From Chroococcales cyanobacterium (lineage in GTDB: Bacteria; Cyanobacteriota; Cyanobacteriia; Cyanobacteriales; Nostocaceae), in NCBI GenBank assembly GCA_038249935.1, contig JBBSCU010000001.1, positions 149 through 64,148 of the forward strand: DNA of 64,000 nucleotides, given 5' to 3'. Position 1 is the stretch's first letter; the number at the start of each line of letters is the position of its first letter. Under the pieces are notes generated by a model. It was not told the origin of the DNA. It saw only the letters and a program-made list of their open reading frames with translations, and did no database searches. Below are positions 5,076-63,716 of the stretch, one piece after another. The translations under genes were made by a program, and so were the position numbers.

Positions 5076-5207
5076 CAATACCGTTCGGAAAGATCCCCCC
5101 GCCTGTGGCGACCCCCTTAAAAAGGGGGTAAAGAGATATTAGCCCCCCTTTTTAAGGGGGGTTGGGGGGATCTCCAAACACTAAATATCACTAATCCAAG
5201 CGTATTG
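5076..5207. mobile_element. MITE-like element with CAATAC-type ends and a GATCCCCCC/CCCCCTTAAAAAGGGGG palindromic core
   Basis: Left end CAATACCGTTCGG, right end CCAAGCGTATTG; reverse complement is nearly identical to 25011-25139. Confidence 0.7.
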
Positions 5208-5230: not shown

Positions 5231-5374
5231 TCAAAGGTGCAACTTCCGAGTTCAAAGGCGCAACGTCCGAGTTCAAAGGTGCAACGTCCGAGTTCAAAGG
5301 CTCAACCTCCGAGTTCAAAGGCTCAACTTCCGAGTTCAAAGACTCAACCTCCGAGTTCAAAGGCTCAACCTCCG
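5231..5374 (+). repeat. 21-bp tandem array, about 6.9 copies
   Basis: Unit TCAAAGGYKCAACBTCCGAGT at 5231, 5252, 5273, 5294, 5315, 5336 and a partial at 5357. Confidence 0.95.
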
Positions 5375-24876: not shown

Positions 24877-25004
24877 CTTTGAGCTAGATGAACGGAGTTC
24901 TGAGGTGGATGAACGAGTCTTTGAGAGAGATGAACGGAGTTCTGAGGTGGATGAACGAGTCTTTGAGAGAGATAAACGGAGTTCTGAGGTGGATGAATGA
25001 GTCT
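24877..25004 (+). repeat. 42-bp (2x21) tandem array, about 3 copies
   Basis: GATGAACGGAGTTCTGAGGTG-GATGAACGAGTCTTTGAGAGA at 24887, 24929 and 24971 (partial). Confidence 0.93.
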
Positions 25005-37428: not shown

Positions 37429-38745
37429 ATGACACCCCCTGAGCCAAAAACTGATTTTGAAGATAATCTTCCCCAAACCTCATTTGAACCACCTCCTAGA
37501 CAAAGGCGATCGCGTTGGTTATTTTTAGCAGCCCTACTATTGTTAGGGGGTGGAGCAACTATAGTTTGGCGTTTGTTCGCTCCCCAAAATTCAGCACCTT
37601 CAACTGCTAACACTCAACCTCAAGGGGTAAGAGTTAAAATATCGACGGTACAAAGCGGCATAATTGAGGAAAGTTCAGATTTTATTGCTAACCTAAAATC
37701 CCAGCGATCGCTCACACTTCAGCCCAAGATTCCAGGTCAAGTTACCCAGATATTTGTTAAATCGGGAGATCCAGTTGCAGAAGGAGCAGCAATTATCCAA
37801 GTAGACGCAAAAGTGCAACCAGGAGCGATCGCTAACAATACTGCACCTCAAGTATTTTTAATGCAATTGCAAAATACCCGCGCTACACTCAAATCTCTGG
37901 AAGCAGAACGACCATCCTACGTTGCTAATGTGCAGTTATACCAGCAGGACTACGAAAGGTATTCCGCTTTAGCTGAGGAAGGAGCCGTGTCTCGACAGGC
38001 TAGAAATCAGGTTGCTAATCGGCTCGCCACTGTTAAAACTAATCTTGATGCCATTGATAAGAGGATTCAAGCCCAACGAGCCTCTATATTGCAAGCGGAA
38101 AAAACCTTGCAGCAAACTAATCTAAACATTCAAAACCAACAAATCCAGAACCAGGACGATAAAATTACTGCTCCCTTTAGTGGCACAATTGGCGACATCC
38201 CGGTGAAAGTCGGTGACTTGGTTAATACTTCCACACAATTAGTAACGATCGCCCAAAATCAACCTTTAGAAGTTAACATCTTTGTACCATTACAGCGATC
38301 GCCACAATTGCGTAAGGGAATGCTAGTGGAGGTTTTGAACGCCCAAGGTCAGAAGTTGGGTAGAAGTAGAGTATTTTTTATTGCACCTAATAGCAGTAAT
38401 AAAACACCAGGAATATTGATCAAAGCCCTCTTTAACAATCCTAAAGGTCAGCTACGTGCAGATGAATTGGTAAGGGCGAGAGTGATCTGGAATCAGCGCC
38501 CCGGAGTCTTAATTCCGACAACATCGGTGACTCGTGTAGCTGGAGAAACTTTTGTTTATGTAGTTGAAACAGAAAAATCTCCCCAAGGTATATCTCAACA
38601 AGTAGCTCGGCAAAAACAAGTCAAGCTAGGCGAAAGTAGAGGTAATAATTACCAAGTTATCGAAGGATTACAGCCAAAAGATAAAATTGTGATCTCAGGG
38701 TTGCTCAATCTGAGGGATGGTGTGGCGATCGTTTCAGAATCTTAG
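37429..38745 (+). CDS. RND efflux periplasmic adaptor (MFP)
   Basis: N-terminal TM, LQPKIPGQV..VKSGD, ITAPFSGTIG..VKVGD, GLQPKDKIV; start moved to ATG 37429. Confidence 0.93.
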   Translation: MTPPEPKTDFEDNLPQTSFEPPPRQRRSRWLFLAALLLLGGGATIVWRLFAPQNSAPSTANTQPQGVRVKISTVQSGIIEESSDFIANLKSQRSLTLQPKIPGQVTQIFVKSGDPVAEGAAIIQVDAKVQPGAIANNTAPQVFLMQLQNTRATLKSLEAERPSYVANVQLYQQDYERYSALAEEGAVSRQARNQVANRLATVKTNLDAIDKRIQAQRASILQAEKTLQQTNLNIQNQQIQNQDDKITAPFSGTIGDIPVKVGDLVNTSTQLVTIAQNQPLEVNIFVPLQRSPQLRKGMLVEVLNAQGQKLGRSRVFFIAPNSSNKTPGILIKALFNNPKGQLRADELVRARVIWNQRPGVLIPTTSVTRVAGETFVYVVETEKSPQGISQQVARQKQVKLGESRGNNYQVIEGLQPKDKIVISGLLNLRDGVAIVSES

Positions 38746-38751
38746 AAATAA

Positions 38752-38828
38752 AGACGCAATAAATCGCCGTCTTTACAATAATCAGTCCTTTGTAGAGACG
38801 GCGATTTATCGCGTCTCCTGCCTTAACC
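38752..38828. mobile_element. Truncated MITE-like remnant: inverted AGACGC(A/G)ATAAATCGCCGTCT pair plus a partial TIR
   Basis: Two inverted SDR-like copies ending in CTTAACC, the inner part of the TIR CTTAACCGAACCGTATTG seen at 42388-42405. Confidence 0.55.
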
Positions 38829-38829
38829 A

Positions 38830-38884
38830 AAGTTCCGAGTTCCAAGCCTGAAGTTCCGAGTTCCAAGCCTGAAGTTCCGAGTTC
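38830..38884 (+). repeat. 21-bp tandem array, 2.6 copies
   Basis: AAGTTCCGAGTTCCAAGCCTG. Confidence 0.9.
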
Positions 38885-38907
38885 TCATATTGACAGTGTT
38901 AAACCTA

Positions 38908-38962
38908 AGAGGATGTCTTAAAAGTATTTGCTACCAAGAAGAGGACTTTTCAAACATCCTCT
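38908..38962. mobile_element. 55-bp element bounded by 18-bp inverted repeats AGAGGATGT(C/T)T(T/G)AAAAGT
   Basis: 16/18 match; lone ends of the same family at 9260-9277, 50789-50804 and 59068-59085. Confidence 0.6.
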
Positions 38963-42410: not shown

Positions 42411-42645
42411 TACTCGACAGTCCGAGCTTTTTACCCGACAGTCCGAGCTTTTGACTCGACACTCCGAGCTTTTGACTCGACACTCCGAGCTTTTGACTCG
42501 ACACTCCGAGCTTTTGACTCGACACTCCGGGCTTTTTACTCGACACTCCGGGCTTTTTACCCGACACGCCGAGCTTTTTACCCGACACGCCGAGCTTTTT
42601 ACTTGACAGTCCGAGCTTTTTACCCGACACTCCGAGCTTTTTACT
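42411..42645 (+). repeat. 21-bp tandem array, 11 copies
   Basis: Unit KACYCGACASTCCGRGCTTTT, starting 5 bp from the TIR. Confidence 0.96.
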
Positions 42646-50788: not shown

Positions 50789-50828
50789 AGGTTGTTTGAA
50801 AAGTCCTATTGTAGGTAGCAAAACGTTC

Positions 50829-50888
50829 TAGATCCCCCTAAATCCCCCTTAAAGAAGGGGGACTTTGATTCCGGTTCCCCGTTTAAGG
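50829..50888. repeat. Partial copy of the GATCCCCC/CCCCCTTAA..AAGGGGG hairpin element
   Basis: GATCCCCCTAAATCCCCCTTAAAGAAGGGGGACTT between the convergent pth and rpsU. Confidence 0.7.
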
Positions 50889-50927
50889 TTATTAAATAAA
50901 GCAACGCCAGTTCCAAGCCAAATAGGT

Positions 50928-55175: not shown

Positions 55176-55360
55176 AATGAGTCTTTTAGCTCCATCAATG
55201 AGTCTTTTAGCTCCATTAATGAGTCTTTTAGCTCCGTTAATGAGTCTTTTAGCTCCATTAATGAGTCTTTTAGCTCCATTAATGAGTCTTTTAGCTCCGT
55301 TAATGAGTCTTTTAGCTCCATTAATGAGTCTTTTAGCTCCATTAACGAGTCTTTTAGCTC
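55176..55360 (+). repeat. 21-bp tandem array, 8.8 copies
   Basis: Unit AATGAGTCTTTTAGCTCC(A/G)TT. Confidence 0.96.
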
Positions 55361-56924: not shown

Positions 56925-57097
56925 TTGTCGATTAACGAATTGTTTGTCGTCTTAACAAATTAATGTCGTTTATCTAAAATAGCTACAAGTATTACAGCAT
57001 AAAGGATTTGGTCATCTTGCTACTAAGGCTACTAAAGCGATCGCTACTATCGCACAGAGTTCCATCGTAGTCAAAAATTATGGCAGCAAAAGAAACC

Positions 57098-57204
57098 CTT
57101 TGCATTTTTCAAACAACCTCTTAGGGATTGAAACATCCCAGTACAGCATTATCAATCCGATCAAGCGATTGCAATTCATCAAAATCCCTATTAGGGATCG
57201 AAAC
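57098..57204 (+). CRISPR. Orphan CRISPR mini-array (2 repeats, one 33-nt spacer), type I-D-like repeat
   Basis: Degenerate repeat 57098-57134 ending TTAGGGATTGAAAC; spacer ATCCCAGTACAGCATTATCAATCCGATCAAGCG; repeat 57168-57204 ATTGCAATTCATCAAAATCCCTATTAGGGATCGAAAC with a 37-nt length, ATCCC/GGGAT stem and GAAAC end. Confidence 0.8.
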
Positions 57205-57285
57205 AGTTGTCTGATGCCGGGACTAGGAAATACATCCTAAAACAAAAAAACTGTAGTAGTTCCAGTTGAATAGAAACAATTACTT

Positions 57286-57320
57286 AAAAAAACCTCCACC
57301 TTGAATGCTTGGAGGTTTTT
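57286..57320. terminator. Probable bidirectional terminator
   Basis: AAAAACCTCCA-loop-TGGAGGTTTTT between the mini-array and the convergent gene. Confidence 0.75.
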
Positions 57321-57350
57321 AAAGCTAACGCCTAAGAACAAATAGCTTTT

Positions 57351-58529
57351 TTAAAACTTAACAAAATACGTATTTGTTGGCAAGAATTGGGTAGTTCCTG
57401 AATTTGTAGCCAAGTCATTTATATTACCTGTTTTAAGTACTGCAAATTTATCGGTAAAGAGCAATACTTCACCATTGCCAGGAGTAACCCAAGCTTGCCG
57501 AGTATTCAGATTATTAGGAACAACCAAAAAACTTGCATCGCCACGGTAAGCCGGGATGGGTTTACCTAAGAAAAGTTGGCTATCTCTATTGGGAATTGCG
57601 TAAGCAGCAGAGGAACCCACAAAAATACTAGTGCCATTAGAATAAATGGTTTTAGGGAAATTAGCGCTTCCGTCACCTAACCCAGCAGATGAAGGAAGTC
57701 TTGGAAAAGCTAGCTGTCCACGCTCGACACTAAACTTAGTAAGATCAACAACTCCTGTATATACCTTTGTTTCATCGCGCGTCTGGGCAGCATTGGTATA
57801 CTTATCGGTAGTAATCAACGTTTGGGTTATTAAATTTTTACCATTCCATCTAAAAATTGAATTGCCACCATAAACTGAGCCGAGTACATAAAGTTTATTA
57901 CCAAAAATATGTAGGCGATTTAATCGGGTATCTGCCATGTTATCAGCAAGGCTACCTGCACCATAACCCCAAAGCTTACCTTGGTTGTCTCCTGGCAAAT
58001 TTGGCAGATTGAATAACTTTGTGCCATTGAAACCCATTCGGTAAAGAAAAGCTATTTGGACGGGAATACCTGCCCGTTTTTGTTGTTGAAAACCACTAAT
58101 GTAGAGATAGTTGTTTTTGTACTCAAAATCCATTACCTCCGTCACGCCATAAGTATTTTTGGCTTTGAAGTTGAGGCTGGTGTCATATATTGATAAAGTA
58201 TTTGCGGACTGTTGAATGACGAGCCCCTCTAGAAACTTGACTCGCGTTCTTGAATTGGCTATGTTGGTAACTATCTTTTGGATAGCTCCGTCAGTACTTA
58301 ATTTTACTAACCCTGTTGGGACAGCGAGAACATAGGTCTTGCCGTCAATTACTGCACAGTCACGGGCATCATGAGAAGAGTTTGGAATTAGTTTTTTTGT
58401 CCCATTCTCTTCTACTTCCCATACCCCTTCAGCATTGATGATCGCAACTTTACTGCCGTTGGTGCAAGCTGCTCTTGGTGAAGAGATATTGACATAAGCG
58501 GCTAAAGCGGGACTAGAGTAATCAAACAT
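57351..58529 (-). CDS. Hypothetical beta-rich protein, probable beta-propeller
   Basis: 392-aa ORF of short beta-strand repeats (KTYVL, YLYISG, KLYVLG, SIFVG); no signal peptide; own promoter and terminator. Confidence 0.78.
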   Translation of the reverse strand: MFDYSSPALAAYVNISSPRAACTNGSKVAIINAEGVWEVEENGTKKLIPNSSHDARDCAVIDGKTYVLAVPTGLVKLSTDGAIQKIVTNIANSRTRVKFLEGLVIQQSANTLSIYDTSLNFKAKNTYGVTEVMDFEYKNNYLYISGFQQQKRAGIPVQIAFLYRMGFNGTKLFNLPNLPGDNQGKLWGYGAGSLADNMADTRLNRLHIFGNKLYVLGSVYGGNSIFRWNGKNLITQTLITTDKYTNAAQTRDETKVYTGVVDLTKFSVERGQLAFPRLPSSAGLGDGSANFPKTIYSNGTSIFVGSSAAYAIPNRDSQLFLGKPIPAYRGDASFLVVPNNLNTRQAWVTPGNGEVLLFTDKFAVLKTGNINDLATNSGTTQFLPTNTYFVKF

Positions 58530-58574
58530 TTTACACCCAAGATAAAAAAATACTTCAGTTGGTAAGAAGTTTTT

Positions 58575-58604
58575 AGCATAGGCCTAATTGATACGGGATG
58601 TCAA
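58575..58604 (-). promoter_or_regulatory. Sigma70-type promoter of the beta-propeller gene
   Basis: Minus strand TTGACA-N18-TATGCT, 45 nt upstream of the ATG; duplicated in the second copy. Confidence 0.65.
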
Positions 58605-58635
58605 AAGATTTTTGAGCCTGGCGAAATCTAACCGC

Positions 58636-58672
58636 ATTGCAATTCATCAAAATCCCTATTAGGGATTGAAAT
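58636..58672 (+). CRISPR. Solo CRISPR repeat
   Basis: ATTGCAATTCATCAAAATCCCTATTAGGGATTGAAAT, 35/37 identical to 57168-57204. Confidence 0.85.
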
Positions 58673-58690
58673 AATATTAATTATCTAAAG

Positions 58691-58792
58691 TCAATCGCTT
58701 TCCTGCTGATTTAACCATGCTTCTAAATCAGTTATATTAGAAAAATCTAATGGAGATCCTTCTAAATCTGCTAATTTTTGAGCAGATAACAC
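58691..58792 (-). pseudogene. 3' remnant of a DUF4351-like (Rpn-associated) domain
   Basis: Hand translation VLSAQKLADLEGSPLDFSNITDLEAWLNQQESD* matches the remembered family tail L..L.EALLDF....DLEAWL. Confidence 0.6.
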
Positions 58793-58864
58793 TTATAAAC
58801 AAGCTGCTCTTGGCGAAGAGATATTGAGATAGGCAGCTAAAGGGAAACTAGAGTAATCAAACAT
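58793..58864 (-). pseudogene. Truncated second copy of the beta-propeller N-terminus (23 aa)
   Basis: MFDYSSFPLAAYLNISSPRAACL* versus MFDYSSPALAAYVNISSPRAACT. Confidence 0.85.
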
Positions 58865-58971
58865 TTTACATCTAAGATAAAAAAATACTTCAGTTGGTAA
58901 TAAGTTTTTAGCATAGGACTAATTGATACGGGATGTCAAAAGATTTTTTGAGCCTAGCGAAATCTAACCGC

Positions 58972-59008
58972 ATTGCAATTCATCAAAATCCCTATTAGGG
59001 ATTGAAAT
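58972..59008 (+). CRISPR. Solo CRISPR repeat (second copy)
   Basis: Identical to 58636-58672. Confidence 0.85.
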
Positions 59009-59218
59009 AATATTAATTATCTAAAGTTAATCGCTTTCCTGCTGATTTAACCATGCTTCTAAATCAGACTTTATAAACATCCTCTATAATTCAGATTTTT
59101 GACCCTAATTAATAACAATGCATACTTATACCAATTATCTGTGAGGTTGCATAGAAAAGGGGCTTAAGCCCCTTGTTTCACCAAACTTGATTTTGTGCAG
59201 TTTTCCAAAGAATTGGTA

Positions 59219-60712
59219 TTAGTCCATCAAATGTTGCTGAACTTTTGAGACTAATTCATTTGTCCAGTAGTTTGCAAGTTCGGCATCGGCGGCTTCTACC
59301 ATCACCCTGATTACTGGTTCTGTACCAGAGGCGCGAACCAAAATTCTGCCGGAATCACCCATTGCAACTTCAGCAAGTGCGATCGCTTCTTGGAGAGGTT
59401 GGCAATCTTTCCATCCTAAACGGCGATCGCGATCCATAACTCGCACGTTCCGCAACAATTGTGGATAAGTTTGGAAGCTCTGATCTACCAATTCCGCTAA
59501 GGAAACACCCGCCTCTTTTACCAAAGCTGCTACGTGTAAGGCTGTTAATAAACCATCTCCAGTCACGGCATAATGACGGCAAAGAATATGACCTGATTGT
59601 TCGCCGCCGAGCATTCCCCCAGTCCGCACCATTTCGGCTTGCACATATTGGTCGCCGACTGCGGTACGAATTAATTTGCCGCCAATTTGTTGCCAAGCTT
59701 TCTCAAAACCTAAGTTGGCCATGACAGTAGATACAATTAAGTTATCCGGCAACTGTTGGTTTTGTTGTAACTTGCGTCCCCACAGATAGAGAATGTAATC
59801 GCCGTTAACTTGCCGGCCAATATTATCTACAGCTAAAACGCGATCAGCATCGCCATCAAAGGCAAAGCCTAAATCAGCGTTGTGTTCTTGTACTGTTGCT
59901 GCAAGAATATCTAAATGAGTGGAACCGCAGTTAACATTAATGCGATCGCCATCCGCTTCGTTATGCAAGCAGATTACCTCTGCTCCCATCTGTGTAAATA
60001 CTGATGGTGCTAACCCGACTGCTGCTCCCCATGCCAAGTCTAAAACAATCTTCATTCCTTGAAGATTTAGCGCACTGTTCAGGGGTTTTTTTAACGCCGA
60101 GCTATAATCCTCCACTAACTCAAAACGTGAGTAATGCCGTCCGCAATTACTGACTCTAGCAATCGGTGATATTTTGCCACGCAGTCCGGCTTCAATTTCT
60201 GCCTGTAATACTTGCGGCAACTTCCCACCATCGGCACCAAAAACCTTAATACCATTGTCTTCTGGCGGATTGTGGCTAGCAGAAATCATCACTCCGCCTA
60301 TAGCATCACTGATGCTGGTGACATAGGAAATGCCAGGAGTGGGACATAATCCCAAATACCAGACCTCTAACCCTGCTGCTGTTAACCCTGCACTCAAAGC
60401 CATTGCTAGCATATCGCTGGAGTTTCGAGAGTCCTGTCCGAGAATGACTGGACCTACTTGAGTAGCATGGTTACGTAAAACAATCCCCGTCCAAAAACCA
60501 ACTTGTAATGCTAAAGGTGCACTTAGTAATTCTCCGACTCGTCCGCGAATCCCGTCAGTACCAAATAAGGGATTTGCTGGTAGTGGGATTAAATTAAAGG
60601 CAAAACTGCTCTCAATTCCTTTGTCCAATCCATCAGCTTCGGAAGCAGAACCCCCGGGAATGTCTGATATCCGAGTTATAGATGAAACCATAAGTTTAAA
60701 TACTCCACACAA
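59219..60712 (-). CDS. glmM: Phosphoglucosamine mutase
   Basis: [35 protein letters not shown]; likely start at ATG 60691. Confidence 0.96.
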
Positions 60713-63458: not shown

Positions 63459-63642
63459 GATCCCCACAACCCCCCTTAAAAAGGGGGGCTAATAATGGCT
63501 CTATTTCCCCCTTTTTAAGGCTCCGGTGTACACACAACTCTTCTAAAAAAACCAAAATCGTCGTAGATCCCCCTAAATCCCCCTTAAAAAGGGGGACTTT
63601 GAGAAGTTTTTGCCCCCCTTAAAAAGGGGGGTTGGGGGGATC
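63459..63642. mobile_element. Nested palindromic element of the CCCCCTTAAAAAGGGGG family
   Basis: Inverted outer arms GATCCCC.CAACCCCCCTTAAAAAGGGGGGC ... GCCCCCCTTAAAAAGGGGGGTTGGGGGGATC with a second core inside. Confidence 0.65.
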
Positions 63643-63716
63643 AAAAGTCTATGTGACTTATTAAATTGACTTATCGTATTTATTGGGGTGCGGGTGGAAA
63701 AATCCACCCCTAAACT

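What the first reader, a model, noticed from the sequence alone, without database searches (positions are those of the whole stretch)
57098..59086. A protein-coding gene bracketed by direct CRISPR repeats: cassette or giant spacer
Four same-orientation repeats (57098, 57168, 58636, 58972) are separated by 33, 1431 and 299 nt. The 1431-nt interval holds a complete antisense transcription unit: promoter, 392-aa beta-propeller gene and terminator. I saw no HIP1 site from 57045 to 59378, a mild hint of foreign origin. Three models fit: repeats used as recombination or integration sites for a gene cassette, an oversized Cas1-2 acquisition, or a CRISPR-linked accessory gene kept between two collapsed arrays. 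No recombinase or cas gene is present locally.
Basis: partly seen in the sequence, partly recalled or inferred. Interest (0 to 1): 0.85.

Follow-up and report, generated by a model that had tools for sequence, protein, structure and literature searches.

The report
Leftover end of a CRISPR array
The repeats around this Nostoc gene are the broken-off tail of a type I-D CRISPR array whose cas genes survive next to the same gene in a sister strain, so this is ordinary array fragmentation rather than a new way of capturing genes.

Summary
Three CRISPR repeats (57168, 58636, 58972) and a partial one (57098) bracket an intact 392-aa beta-propeller gene. The novel readings do not hold.

- **Sister strain.** In a Nostoc MAG the same gene, with the same flanking repeats, lies between glmM and a 9-repeat array followed by cas2-cas1-cas4-cas6-cas3' (type I-D).
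- **Loss in the window.** The window lineage lost the cas operon and most of the array. Its tpiA-GTPase block has other neighbours in 80 other Nostoc genomes.
- **Repeat 57098.** It is a half repeat fused to the terminal inverted repeat of a Nostoc MITE, not a decayed repeat.
- **Repeat 58972.** It is a by-product of a 335-bp tandem duplication covering the gene start, promoter, repeat and flank. It is not an acquisition product.
- **The gene.** The family is mobile and confined to Nostocales, with relatives in Nodularia phages. Its roughly 80%-identical homologues sit in four other chromosomal contexts without repeats.
- **HIP1.** The HIP1-free gap is not unusual.

How the gene came to lie between the last regular repeat and the terminal-type repeat is unresolved. 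A single insertion at the array's trailer end is the most economical reading. Fragmented orphan arrays and MITE-split arrays are already described in filamentous cyanobacteria. Interest is low to moderate.

The parts
56925..57105 (.). Junction DNA of unknown origin between the GTPase stop codon and the MITE end. Synteny with 80 other Nostoc genomes stops at 56925.
   Evidence: Searches show homology ending at the stop codon. No match in 142 fetched loci. A MITE profile does not recognise it. A + strand promoter-like site lies at 56952-56980.
57106..57124 (+). Right terminal inverted repeat (57106-57119, TTTTCAAACAACCT) and target-site copy (57120-57124, CTTAG) of a Nostoc MITE.
   Evidence: An exact 16-19-mer is shared with 9 MITE ends in other loci. 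Full copies show the inverted repeat and a CTWAG duplication. L114 carries the same MITE at the same loop position of a repeat of this family.
57121..57134 (+). 3' half of a CRISPR repeat (TTAGGGATTGAAAC).
   Evidence: Searches give 27 of 37 matches, with the last 14 positions identical to the consensus.
57135..57167 (+). Spacer 1 (33 nt), unique to the window lineage.
   Evidence: No exact match in viral contigs and no meaningful match within the window. Seen between repeats at genome-like depth in run X4.
57168..57204 (+). Full CRISPR repeat. It corresponds in position to the last regular repeat of the 9-repeat array in sister strain L001.
   Evidence: Rfam CRISPR-DR5, 45.1 bits. Alignment of the window to L001 starts exactly here.
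57205..57240 (+). Spacer-like 36 nt. Shared with L001 but replaced by an unrelated 54 nt in the L093/L094 lineage.
   Evidence: No exact match in viral contigs.
57283..57322 (.). Two-way intrinsic terminator hairpin (A run, stem, T run). It would end both the gene's transcript and array read-through.
   Evidence: -13.2 and -16.2 kcal/mol, z about -4 on both strands. Conserved in L001 and L093.
57351..58529 (-). 392-aa 7-bladed beta-propeller protein of unknown function, from a mobile, mosaic family confined to Nostocales.
   Evidence: Phage relatives. RNA-run contigs of a relative.
58575..58604 (-). Candidate sigma-70-type promoter of the gene (TTGACA, 18 nt, TATGCT).
   Evidence: a consensus match only. 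Duplicated at 58910-58939.
58636..58672 (+). Lone CRISPR repeat of terminal type (its last base is T rather than C), 32 nt upstream of the gene's -35 box.
   Evidence: Rfam, 49.7 bits. Conserved in L001 and L093 no better than its flanks. Terminal repeats of other arrays of this family also vary at the 3' end.
58465..58799 (.). Copy 1 of a 335-bp tandem duplication: the gene's first 65 nt, promoter, repeat and 127 nt of flank.
   Evidence: families D2 and D3: 93% and 98% identity, period 335-336. Junction read at 58799/58800.
58800..59078 (.). Copy 2 of the tandem duplication, shorter by about 59 nt. It holds the fourth repeat (58972-59008) and an orphan copy of the gene start.
   Evidence: Also present in L001. 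Absent from the lineage of RNA run X14, where a contig joins 58648 to 59007.

Best explanation
This is the trailer-end remnant of a type I-D CRISPR array, most likely no longer doing anything specific for the gene it surrounds. Shown: in a sister Nostoc the order is glmM, duplicated lone repeat, gene, 9-repeat array, leader, cas2-cas1-cas4-cas6-cas3'. Shown: the window matches that arrangement from repeat 57168 rightwards. To the left of that repeat it has only one spacer and a half repeat fused to a MITE end, then a GTPase gene that has other neighbours in other Nostoc genomes. Inferred: a MITE inserted into the loop of a repeat, and a later rearrangement at that MITE removed the leader side of the array and the cas operon. 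MITE-by-MITE recombination is plausible, because relatives carry this MITE just downstream of the GTPase gene. Shown: the fourth repeat arose through a 335-bp tandem duplication, not through spacer acquisition. Inferred: the gene-bearing 1.4 kb entered once, between the penultimate and terminal repeats of the array, in the common ancestor of three lineages. The gene belongs to a mobile, phage-related family with no general link to CRISPR. The leftover repeat-spacer-repeat unit could still be cut by a Cas6 encoded elsewhere in the genome, but that was not tested.
For: - Sister locus L001 carries the gene (91% identical), both distal repeats, a 9-repeat array and cas genes. Cas1 scores 454 bits against the type I-D Cas1d model (cut-off 385), and the helicase matches the I-D Cas3' model.
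- The window aligns to L001 from 57168 to 59033 at 91.7% and onward through glmM at 94.5%.
- In 80 genomes anchored on the GTPase, none has glmM, the gene, cas genes or this repeat within 10 kb, and homology ends at the stop codon. The GTPase contig from the same MAG as L001 has other neighbours.
- In four other Nostoc assemblies glmM is followed by a glycosyltransferase cluster.
- The MITE end is an exact 16-19-mer shared with 9 elements. Five full copies lie just downstream of the GTPase gene in relatives. L114 is an independent array cut by the same MITE at the same loop position.
- The tandem duplication is shown, and one lineage has a single copy.
- Homologues sit in four repeat-free contexts and in phages.
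- Repeat 58636 is no better conserved than its flanks; its L001 counterpart carries 3 changes.
- Array fragmentation, orphan arrays processed by a remote Cas6, and a MITE splitting one array are reported for Anabaena 7120 (bioRxiv 10.1101/2020.04.14.041012).
Against: - No element ends, target duplication or recombinase mark the 1.4-kb insert, so the insertion itself is inferred from parsimony only.
- The 36 nt after repeat 57168 differ completely in a third lineage although the DNA on both sides is shared. A single simple insertion does not explain that.
- Only the last 14-19 nt of the MITE can be recognised. The rest of the junction is of unknown origin.
- The lone repeat has stayed intact in three lineages, so some function cannot be excluded.
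Confidence: 0.66

Rival explanations
1. Two separate arrays flank an older resident gene. The lone repeat at 58636 would be the last survivor of a second array, and the gene was never inserted into an array.
For: A spacer-length segment (57205-57240) followed by shared trailer DNA and a terminator looks like a natural array end before the gene. Split arrays and orphan mini-arrays are common in these metagenomes and in Nostocales.
Against: Only a single repeat survives on the far side in every lineage seen. The 37 nt after the spacer-like segment match the repeat at only 13 of 37 positions, which is chance level. The gene is not a resident of the glmM flank in other Nostoc genomes, and the family changes position freely. 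This model needs at least one more event than a single insertion.
Confidence: 0.17
2. The gene is a cassette that moves by recombination between CRISPR repeats. A circle carrying one repeat would excise and re-enter at any repeat of the family.
For: The gene is bracketed by same-orientation repeats in three lineages. The family occupies at least five chromosomal positions and occurs in phages. Repeats of this family are abundant in the same samples.
Against: All repeat-flanked copies are at one locus beside glmM. Homologues elsewhere have no repeats and share only the coding sequence plus about 100 nt of a different promoter. The DNA next to the left repeat differs between lineages. No joint of the circle or empty-site kind appears in four metagenomes at 12-45x depth. 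These are contig data, which drop rare forms.
Confidence: 0.08
3. The repeats have a regulatory role. The lone repeat upstream of the promoter, or the mini-array RNA, would recruit Cas proteins to control the gene, as in crRNA-like regulators.
For: Repeat 58636 sits 32 nt upstream of the -35 box in three lineages. A type I-D operon with the same repeat occurs at matching depth in some samples that hold the window sequence.
Against: The two spacers have no complementarity to the gene or its promoter beyond chance 8-12-mers. The repeat next to the functional gene copy in L001 has 3 substitutions, like neutral DNA. Homologues elsewhere do without any repeat.
Confidence: 0.05
4. Cas1-Cas2 acquired oversized spacers of 1431 and 299 nt.
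For: Same-orientation, near-identical repeats bound both intervals.
Against: The 299-nt interval is part of a tandem duplication whose ends lie outside the repeats. Spacers of this family, read from the array sequences, are about 33-40 nt. The 1431-nt interval is a complete transcription unit with homologues elsewhere.
Confidence: 0.02

Closest known systems
Fragmented and orphan CRISPR arrays of filamentous cyanobacteria (Anabaena sp. PCC 7120; Reimann et al. 2020, bioRxiv 10.1101/2020.04.14.041012, citing Hou et al. 2019)
   Same: Arrays without cas genes, a repeat family also found next to a cas operon elsewhere, and a MITE interrupting an array. That paper reports arrays CR_6 and CR_7 as split by a 134-nt MITE.
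   Different: Here the split holds an intact, expressed protein-coding gene that is not a mobile-element gene. The array has shrunk to one and a half repeats on one side and one (duplicated) repeat on the other.
Tn7-like transposons that target CRISPR arrays in cyanobacteria (Chacon Machado and Peters 2025, PMC11837452)
   Same: Foreign DNA lies in the spacer just upstream of an intact repeat. [quoted passage not shown]
   Different: There are no tnsAB, tnsC or tnsD genes, and no inverted or direct repeats at the two ends of the interval. Those elements are reported to carry no cargo genes.
Type I-D CRISPR-Cas locus
   Same: The repeat matches Rfam CRISPR-DR5. The sister locus has Cas1d, Cas2, Cas4, Cas6 and Cas3'.
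   Different: The window has no cas genes. The effector genes (cas10d, csc1, csc2) were not seen even in the 13 kb of the sister locus.
Integron gene cassettes
   Same: A single gene bounded by repeated sites in one orientation.
   Different: There is no integrase. The sites are CRISPR repeats rather than attC. The gene has its own promoter and terminator, and only one locus is involved.

Membership tests
CRISPR array (type I-D, Rfam CRISPR-DR5) | Repeat sequence and hairpin of the family | tested here: met
   Three copies score above the Rfam gathering score. They are identical to the majority repeat (518 of 558 copies) in the arrays fetched from metagenomes and the sister locus. The stem-loop folds.
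CRISPR array (type I-D, Rfam CRISPR-DR5) | Regular alternation of repeats with unique spacers of about 33-40 nt | tested here: not met
   Only one regular unit exists (half repeat, 33-nt spacer, repeat). The other intervals are 1431 and 299 nt.
CRISPR array (type I-D, Rfam CRISPR-DR5) | Adjacent leader and cas genes | tested here: not met
   No cas homologue in the 64-kb window. The junction is unlike the L001 leader. The feature is met in sister locus L001.
CRISPR array (type I-D, Rfam CRISPR-DR5) | Spacers matching mobile elements | tested here: inconclusive
   No exact 28-nt match to viral contigs for either spacer. Mismatched matches were not searched.
MITE (Nostoc family with TIR AGGNTGTTTGAAAAGT and CTWAG duplication) | Both terminal inverted repeats and a target-site duplication | tested here: inconclusive
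   The right inverted repeat and CTTAG are present at 57106-57124. No left inverted repeat was found, and the family profile gives no hit to 56926-57105. It is a solo end.
Tn7-like array-targeting transposon | tnsAB, tnsC and tnsD genes, with TnsB-binding ends | tested here: not met
   The only ORF of 60 aa or more that fills the interval is the propeller gene, which has no Pfam match. The ends share no inverted or direct repeats.
Integron-like cassette | Site-specific recombinase and cassettes at several sites | tested here: not met
   The ORFs called between tpiA and the heme oxygenase gene give no candidate recombinase. Repeat-flanked copies occur only at the glmM locus.
crRNA-like regulator (mini-array that represses a gene) | Spacer partly complementary to a promoter or gene nearby | tested here: not met
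   The best matches within the window are 12 nt, with E about 0.07, and lie far from the locus.
Beta-propeller fold (the 392-aa protein) | Seven four-stranded blades | tested here: met
   AlphaFold2 model with pLDDT 82 and pTM 0.87. Top Foldseek matches are DDB1, WD40, BtuG and the clathrin terminal domain. No sequence family matched.

The most novel reading that the evidence does not exclude
CRISPR repeats in Nostoc act as portable recombination sites. A phage-related gene could then enter and leave arrays as a one-repeat circle. The same hairpin loop is also a preferred MITE target, so arrays would become hotspots for gene capture and for loss of cas operons.
Probability: 0.07. Interest if true: 0.7.

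Novelty: new member of a known kind. Interest (0 to 1): 0.3.

Why it matters
The case mainly shows how a striking pattern, a gene framed by CRISPR repeats, arises from ordinary events. Those events are an insertion at the little-used end of an array, a small tandem duplication, a MITE landing in a repeat loop, and a rearrangement that removed the cas genes. It adds a worked example, with a sister strain as the 'before' state, of how filamentous cyanobacteria come to have many orphan mini-arrays. Two side findings may deserve follow-up. One MITE family cuts repeats of this CRISPR family at the same loop position in two independent arrays. The propeller gene family is shared between Nostocales chromosomes and Nodularia phages and keeps changing position.

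Tried and rejected
- **Degenerate terminal repeat at 57241-57277.** Only 13 of 37 positions match, which is chance level.
- **Foreign composition.** The HIP1 gap and GC content are unremarkable.
- **Function of the gene from sequence libraries.** No hits in Pfam, NCBIfam, PADLOC or PHROGs. A PDB sequence search gave one weak PQQ-propeller match.
- **Protospacers.** No exact match for either spacer in viral contigs.
- **Self-targeting by the spacers.** Only chance matches within the window.
- **Element ends on the 1431-nt interval.** None found.
- **Similarity of 56926-57105 to the L001 leader, other array flanks or full MITEs.** None.
- **Linking the window genome to a cas operon by depth.** The result is suggestive but inconsistent between samples.

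Full report
**Observation**

Four same-strand copies of a 37-nt repeat lie at 57098, 57168, 58636 and 58972. The intervals between them are 33, 1431 and 299 nt. The last three match Rfam CRISPR-DR5 on the + strand above the gathering score. Their 20-nt core occurs three times in the window against 0.02 expected. The first copy matches at 27 of 37 positions, and its last 14 bases are perfect.

The 1431-nt interval holds an intact 392-aa ORF on the minus strand. A strong two-way hairpin terminator follows the ORF, and a consensus-like promoter lies upstream. The protein has no match in Pfam, NCBIfam, PADLOC or PHROGs. Its AlphaFold2 model is confident (pLDDT 82, pTM 0.87) and is a 7-bladed beta-propeller by Foldseek.

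The HIP1 hint is not. The window has 74 HIP1 sites, and the 2342-nt gap here is only the fifth largest. The gene's GC content is unremarkable.

**The fourth repeat**

Positions 58465-58799 and 58800-59078 are two copies of a 335-bp tandem duplication, 93-98% identical, with one indel of about 59 nt. The unit contains the first 65 nt of the gene, its promoter, the repeat and about 70-130 nt of flank. Its ends are not at repeats, so the '299-nt spacer' is not a product of spacer acquisition.

The duplication is shared with a sister strain. It is absent from a third lineage, where an RNA-run contig joins 58648 directly to 59007.

**The sister strain**

The closest homologue (91% identical) lies in a Nostoc MAG (locus L001). 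The order there is heme oxygenase, glmM, the duplicated lone repeat, the gene, a 9-repeat array, and then cas2, cas1, cas4, cas6, a 2OG-oxygenase-like gene and a helicase. Cas1 reaches the curated cut-off of the type I-D Cas1d model, and the helicase matches the I-D Cas3' model.

The window aligns to this locus from repeat 57168 to 59033 at 91.7%, and onward through glmM at 94.5%. Repeat 57168 therefore corresponds to the last regular repeat of a working-type array. Repeat 58636, whose last base is T, lies beyond the gene.

A third lineage (L093/L094, 89% identical, from RNA-run contigs) also has a repeat on both sides of the gene.

**The left boundary**

I anchored a genome scan on the GTPase gene and obtained 80 Nostoc loci. 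All keep tpiA-GTPase, but none has glmM, the gene, cas genes or this repeat within 10 kb. Homology to the window ends at the GTPase stop codon. In the very MAG that holds L001, the GTPase is followed by other genes. Conversely, glmM in four other assemblies is followed by a glycosyltransferase cluster. The GTPase-glmM adjacency is thus a rearrangement junction peculiar to the window lineage. Six metagenome contigs carry the identical arrangement.

The 'degenerate' first repeat explains how the junction formed. Its 5' part is the terminal inverted repeat of a Nostoc MITE. The exact 16-19-mer TTTTCAAACAACCTCT(TAG) recurs at the ends of 9 elements in other loci. Full copies are 140-275 bp, with inverted ends and a CTWAG duplication.

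In the window the MITE end and CTTAG are followed directly by GGATTGAAAC, the 3' end of a repeat. The MITE therefore sat in the repeat's hairpin loop. Locus L114 shows the mirror image: the 5' part of a repeat, ATTAG, the same MITE, and then unrelated DNA.

Five relatives carry this MITE just downstream of the GTPase gene. I infer that recombination at such a copy removed the leader side of the array and the cas operon. Only the MITE end is recognisable. The remaining 180 nt of the junction have no match anywhere.

**The gene family**

Homologues are confined to Nostoc. Those about 80% identical lie in four different chromosomal settings without any repeat of this family. Three of them share only the coding sequence plus about 100 nt of their own promoter.

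More distant relatives occur in a phage-like contig. Others form part of a 698-aa ORF in an IMG/VR contig and of a 695-aa protein in cultured Nodularia phages.

The gene is mosaic. Against L001 its first 630 nt are 97-100% identical (one 90-nt block is 90%), and the next 450 nt are 74-89% identical. Against L093 the pattern is roughly the reverse. This is a mobile, recombining family with no general tie to CRISPR.

**How the gene came to lie between repeats**

All repeat-flanked copies are at the glmM locus, so one event in a common ancestor suffices. The most economical reading is insertion of about 1.4 kb between the penultimate and terminal repeats of the array. CRISPR-targeting Tn7-like elements of cyanobacteria often take that position (PMC11837452).

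Here, however, there are no transposition genes and no inverted or direct repeats at the two ends of the interval. One fact remains unexplained. The 36 nt after repeat 57168 are replaced by an unrelated 54 nt in the third lineage, although the DNA on both sides is shared. I considered a degenerate terminal repeat at 57241-57277, but it matches at only 13 of 37 positions, which is chance level. The alternative of two arrays around an older gene cannot be excluded.

**Present function**

Repeat 58636 is no better conserved than its flanks. The copy next to the functional gene in L001 has three changes. The spacers have no meaningful match in the window or in viral contigs.

Arrays with the identical repeat and type I-D cas operons occur in the same metagenomes. 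In runs X3 and X4 an operon of the L125 type has about the same depth as the window sequence. In X1 a different operon fits better. The strain probably has a cognate Cas6 elsewhere, as shown for orphan arrays of Anabaena 7120, but this rests on depth matching only.

**Verdict**

The finding is real but ordinary. It is a fragmented, orphaned end of a type I-D array with a MITE scar and a small tandem duplication, lying around a mobile gene of unknown function.

Noticed in passing
window 50789-50906, 63540-63664, 38732-38960, 5083-5200; loci L069, L070, L073, L074, L076, L112, L114, L116, L131, L132: A Nostoc MITE family of 140-275 bp, with inverted ends AGGNTGTTTGAAAAGT...ACTTTTCAAACANCCT and a 5-bp CTWAG duplication. 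Several copies lie just downstream of the GTPase gene in relatives. Two independent arrays of this CRISPR family are cut at the same loop position.
   Followed up: partly
L114 645-1060: A 4-repeat array whose last repeat is cut by the MITE. The far side of the MITE is unrelated DNA with a mismatched target copy (ATTAG against CTCAG), the mirror image of the window's half repeat.
   Followed up: partly
L001 5012-5496: A 486-bp insertion with inverted ends GGTAACCGTTCA(C)GGGGGG and a GTTAATCG duplication, inside the second copy of the tandem duplication. It is absent from the window.
   Followed up: no
window 57351-58529: The propeller gene is a mosaic of near-identical and 66-89% identical blocks when compared with two sister lineages. 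This suggests recombination between alleles or paralogues.
   Followed up: partly
L142 7711-9798 (Nodularia phage vB_NspS-kac68v161 gp111); L141 7044-9140; L135 5001-6185: Relatives of the propeller protein occur in cultured Nodularia phages and in predicted viral contigs. In two cases the relative is part of a protein of about 695 aa, in a region of small hypothetical and regulator genes.
   Followed up: partly
window 55176-55360; also 5231-5374, 24877-25004, 38830-38884, 42411-42645: Tandem arrays of 21-nt units (2.6 to 11 copies) in intergenic DNA. One lies between tpiA and the GTPase gene.
   Followed up: no
window 58690-58799 and 59026-59085, minus strand: A short ORF remnant ending ...DLEAWLNQQESD lies directly beside the lone repeats. 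It may be the tail of a decayed gene. The duplicated gene start also creates a 33-aa pseudo-ORF (called as a gene in L087).
   Followed up: no
window 59122-59212: This stretch downstream of glmM, with a hairpin, is about 78% like a stretch that lies between the heme oxygenase gene and glmM in L136-L138. It may be a small dispersed element.
   Followed up: no
L096 166-273, L098 4124-4231, L117 1135-1242: Two-repeat mini-arrays of the same repeat family, in one shared context, occur in the same metagenome series. Orphan mini-arrays therefore seem common in these populations.
   Followed up: no
L001 11109-11729; L118, L125, L130: A 206-aa 2OG-Fe(II) oxygenase-like gene sits between cas3' and cas6 in every copy of this type I-D module. 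The usual cas10d, csc2 and csc1 genes were not seen in the stretches held.
   Followed up: no
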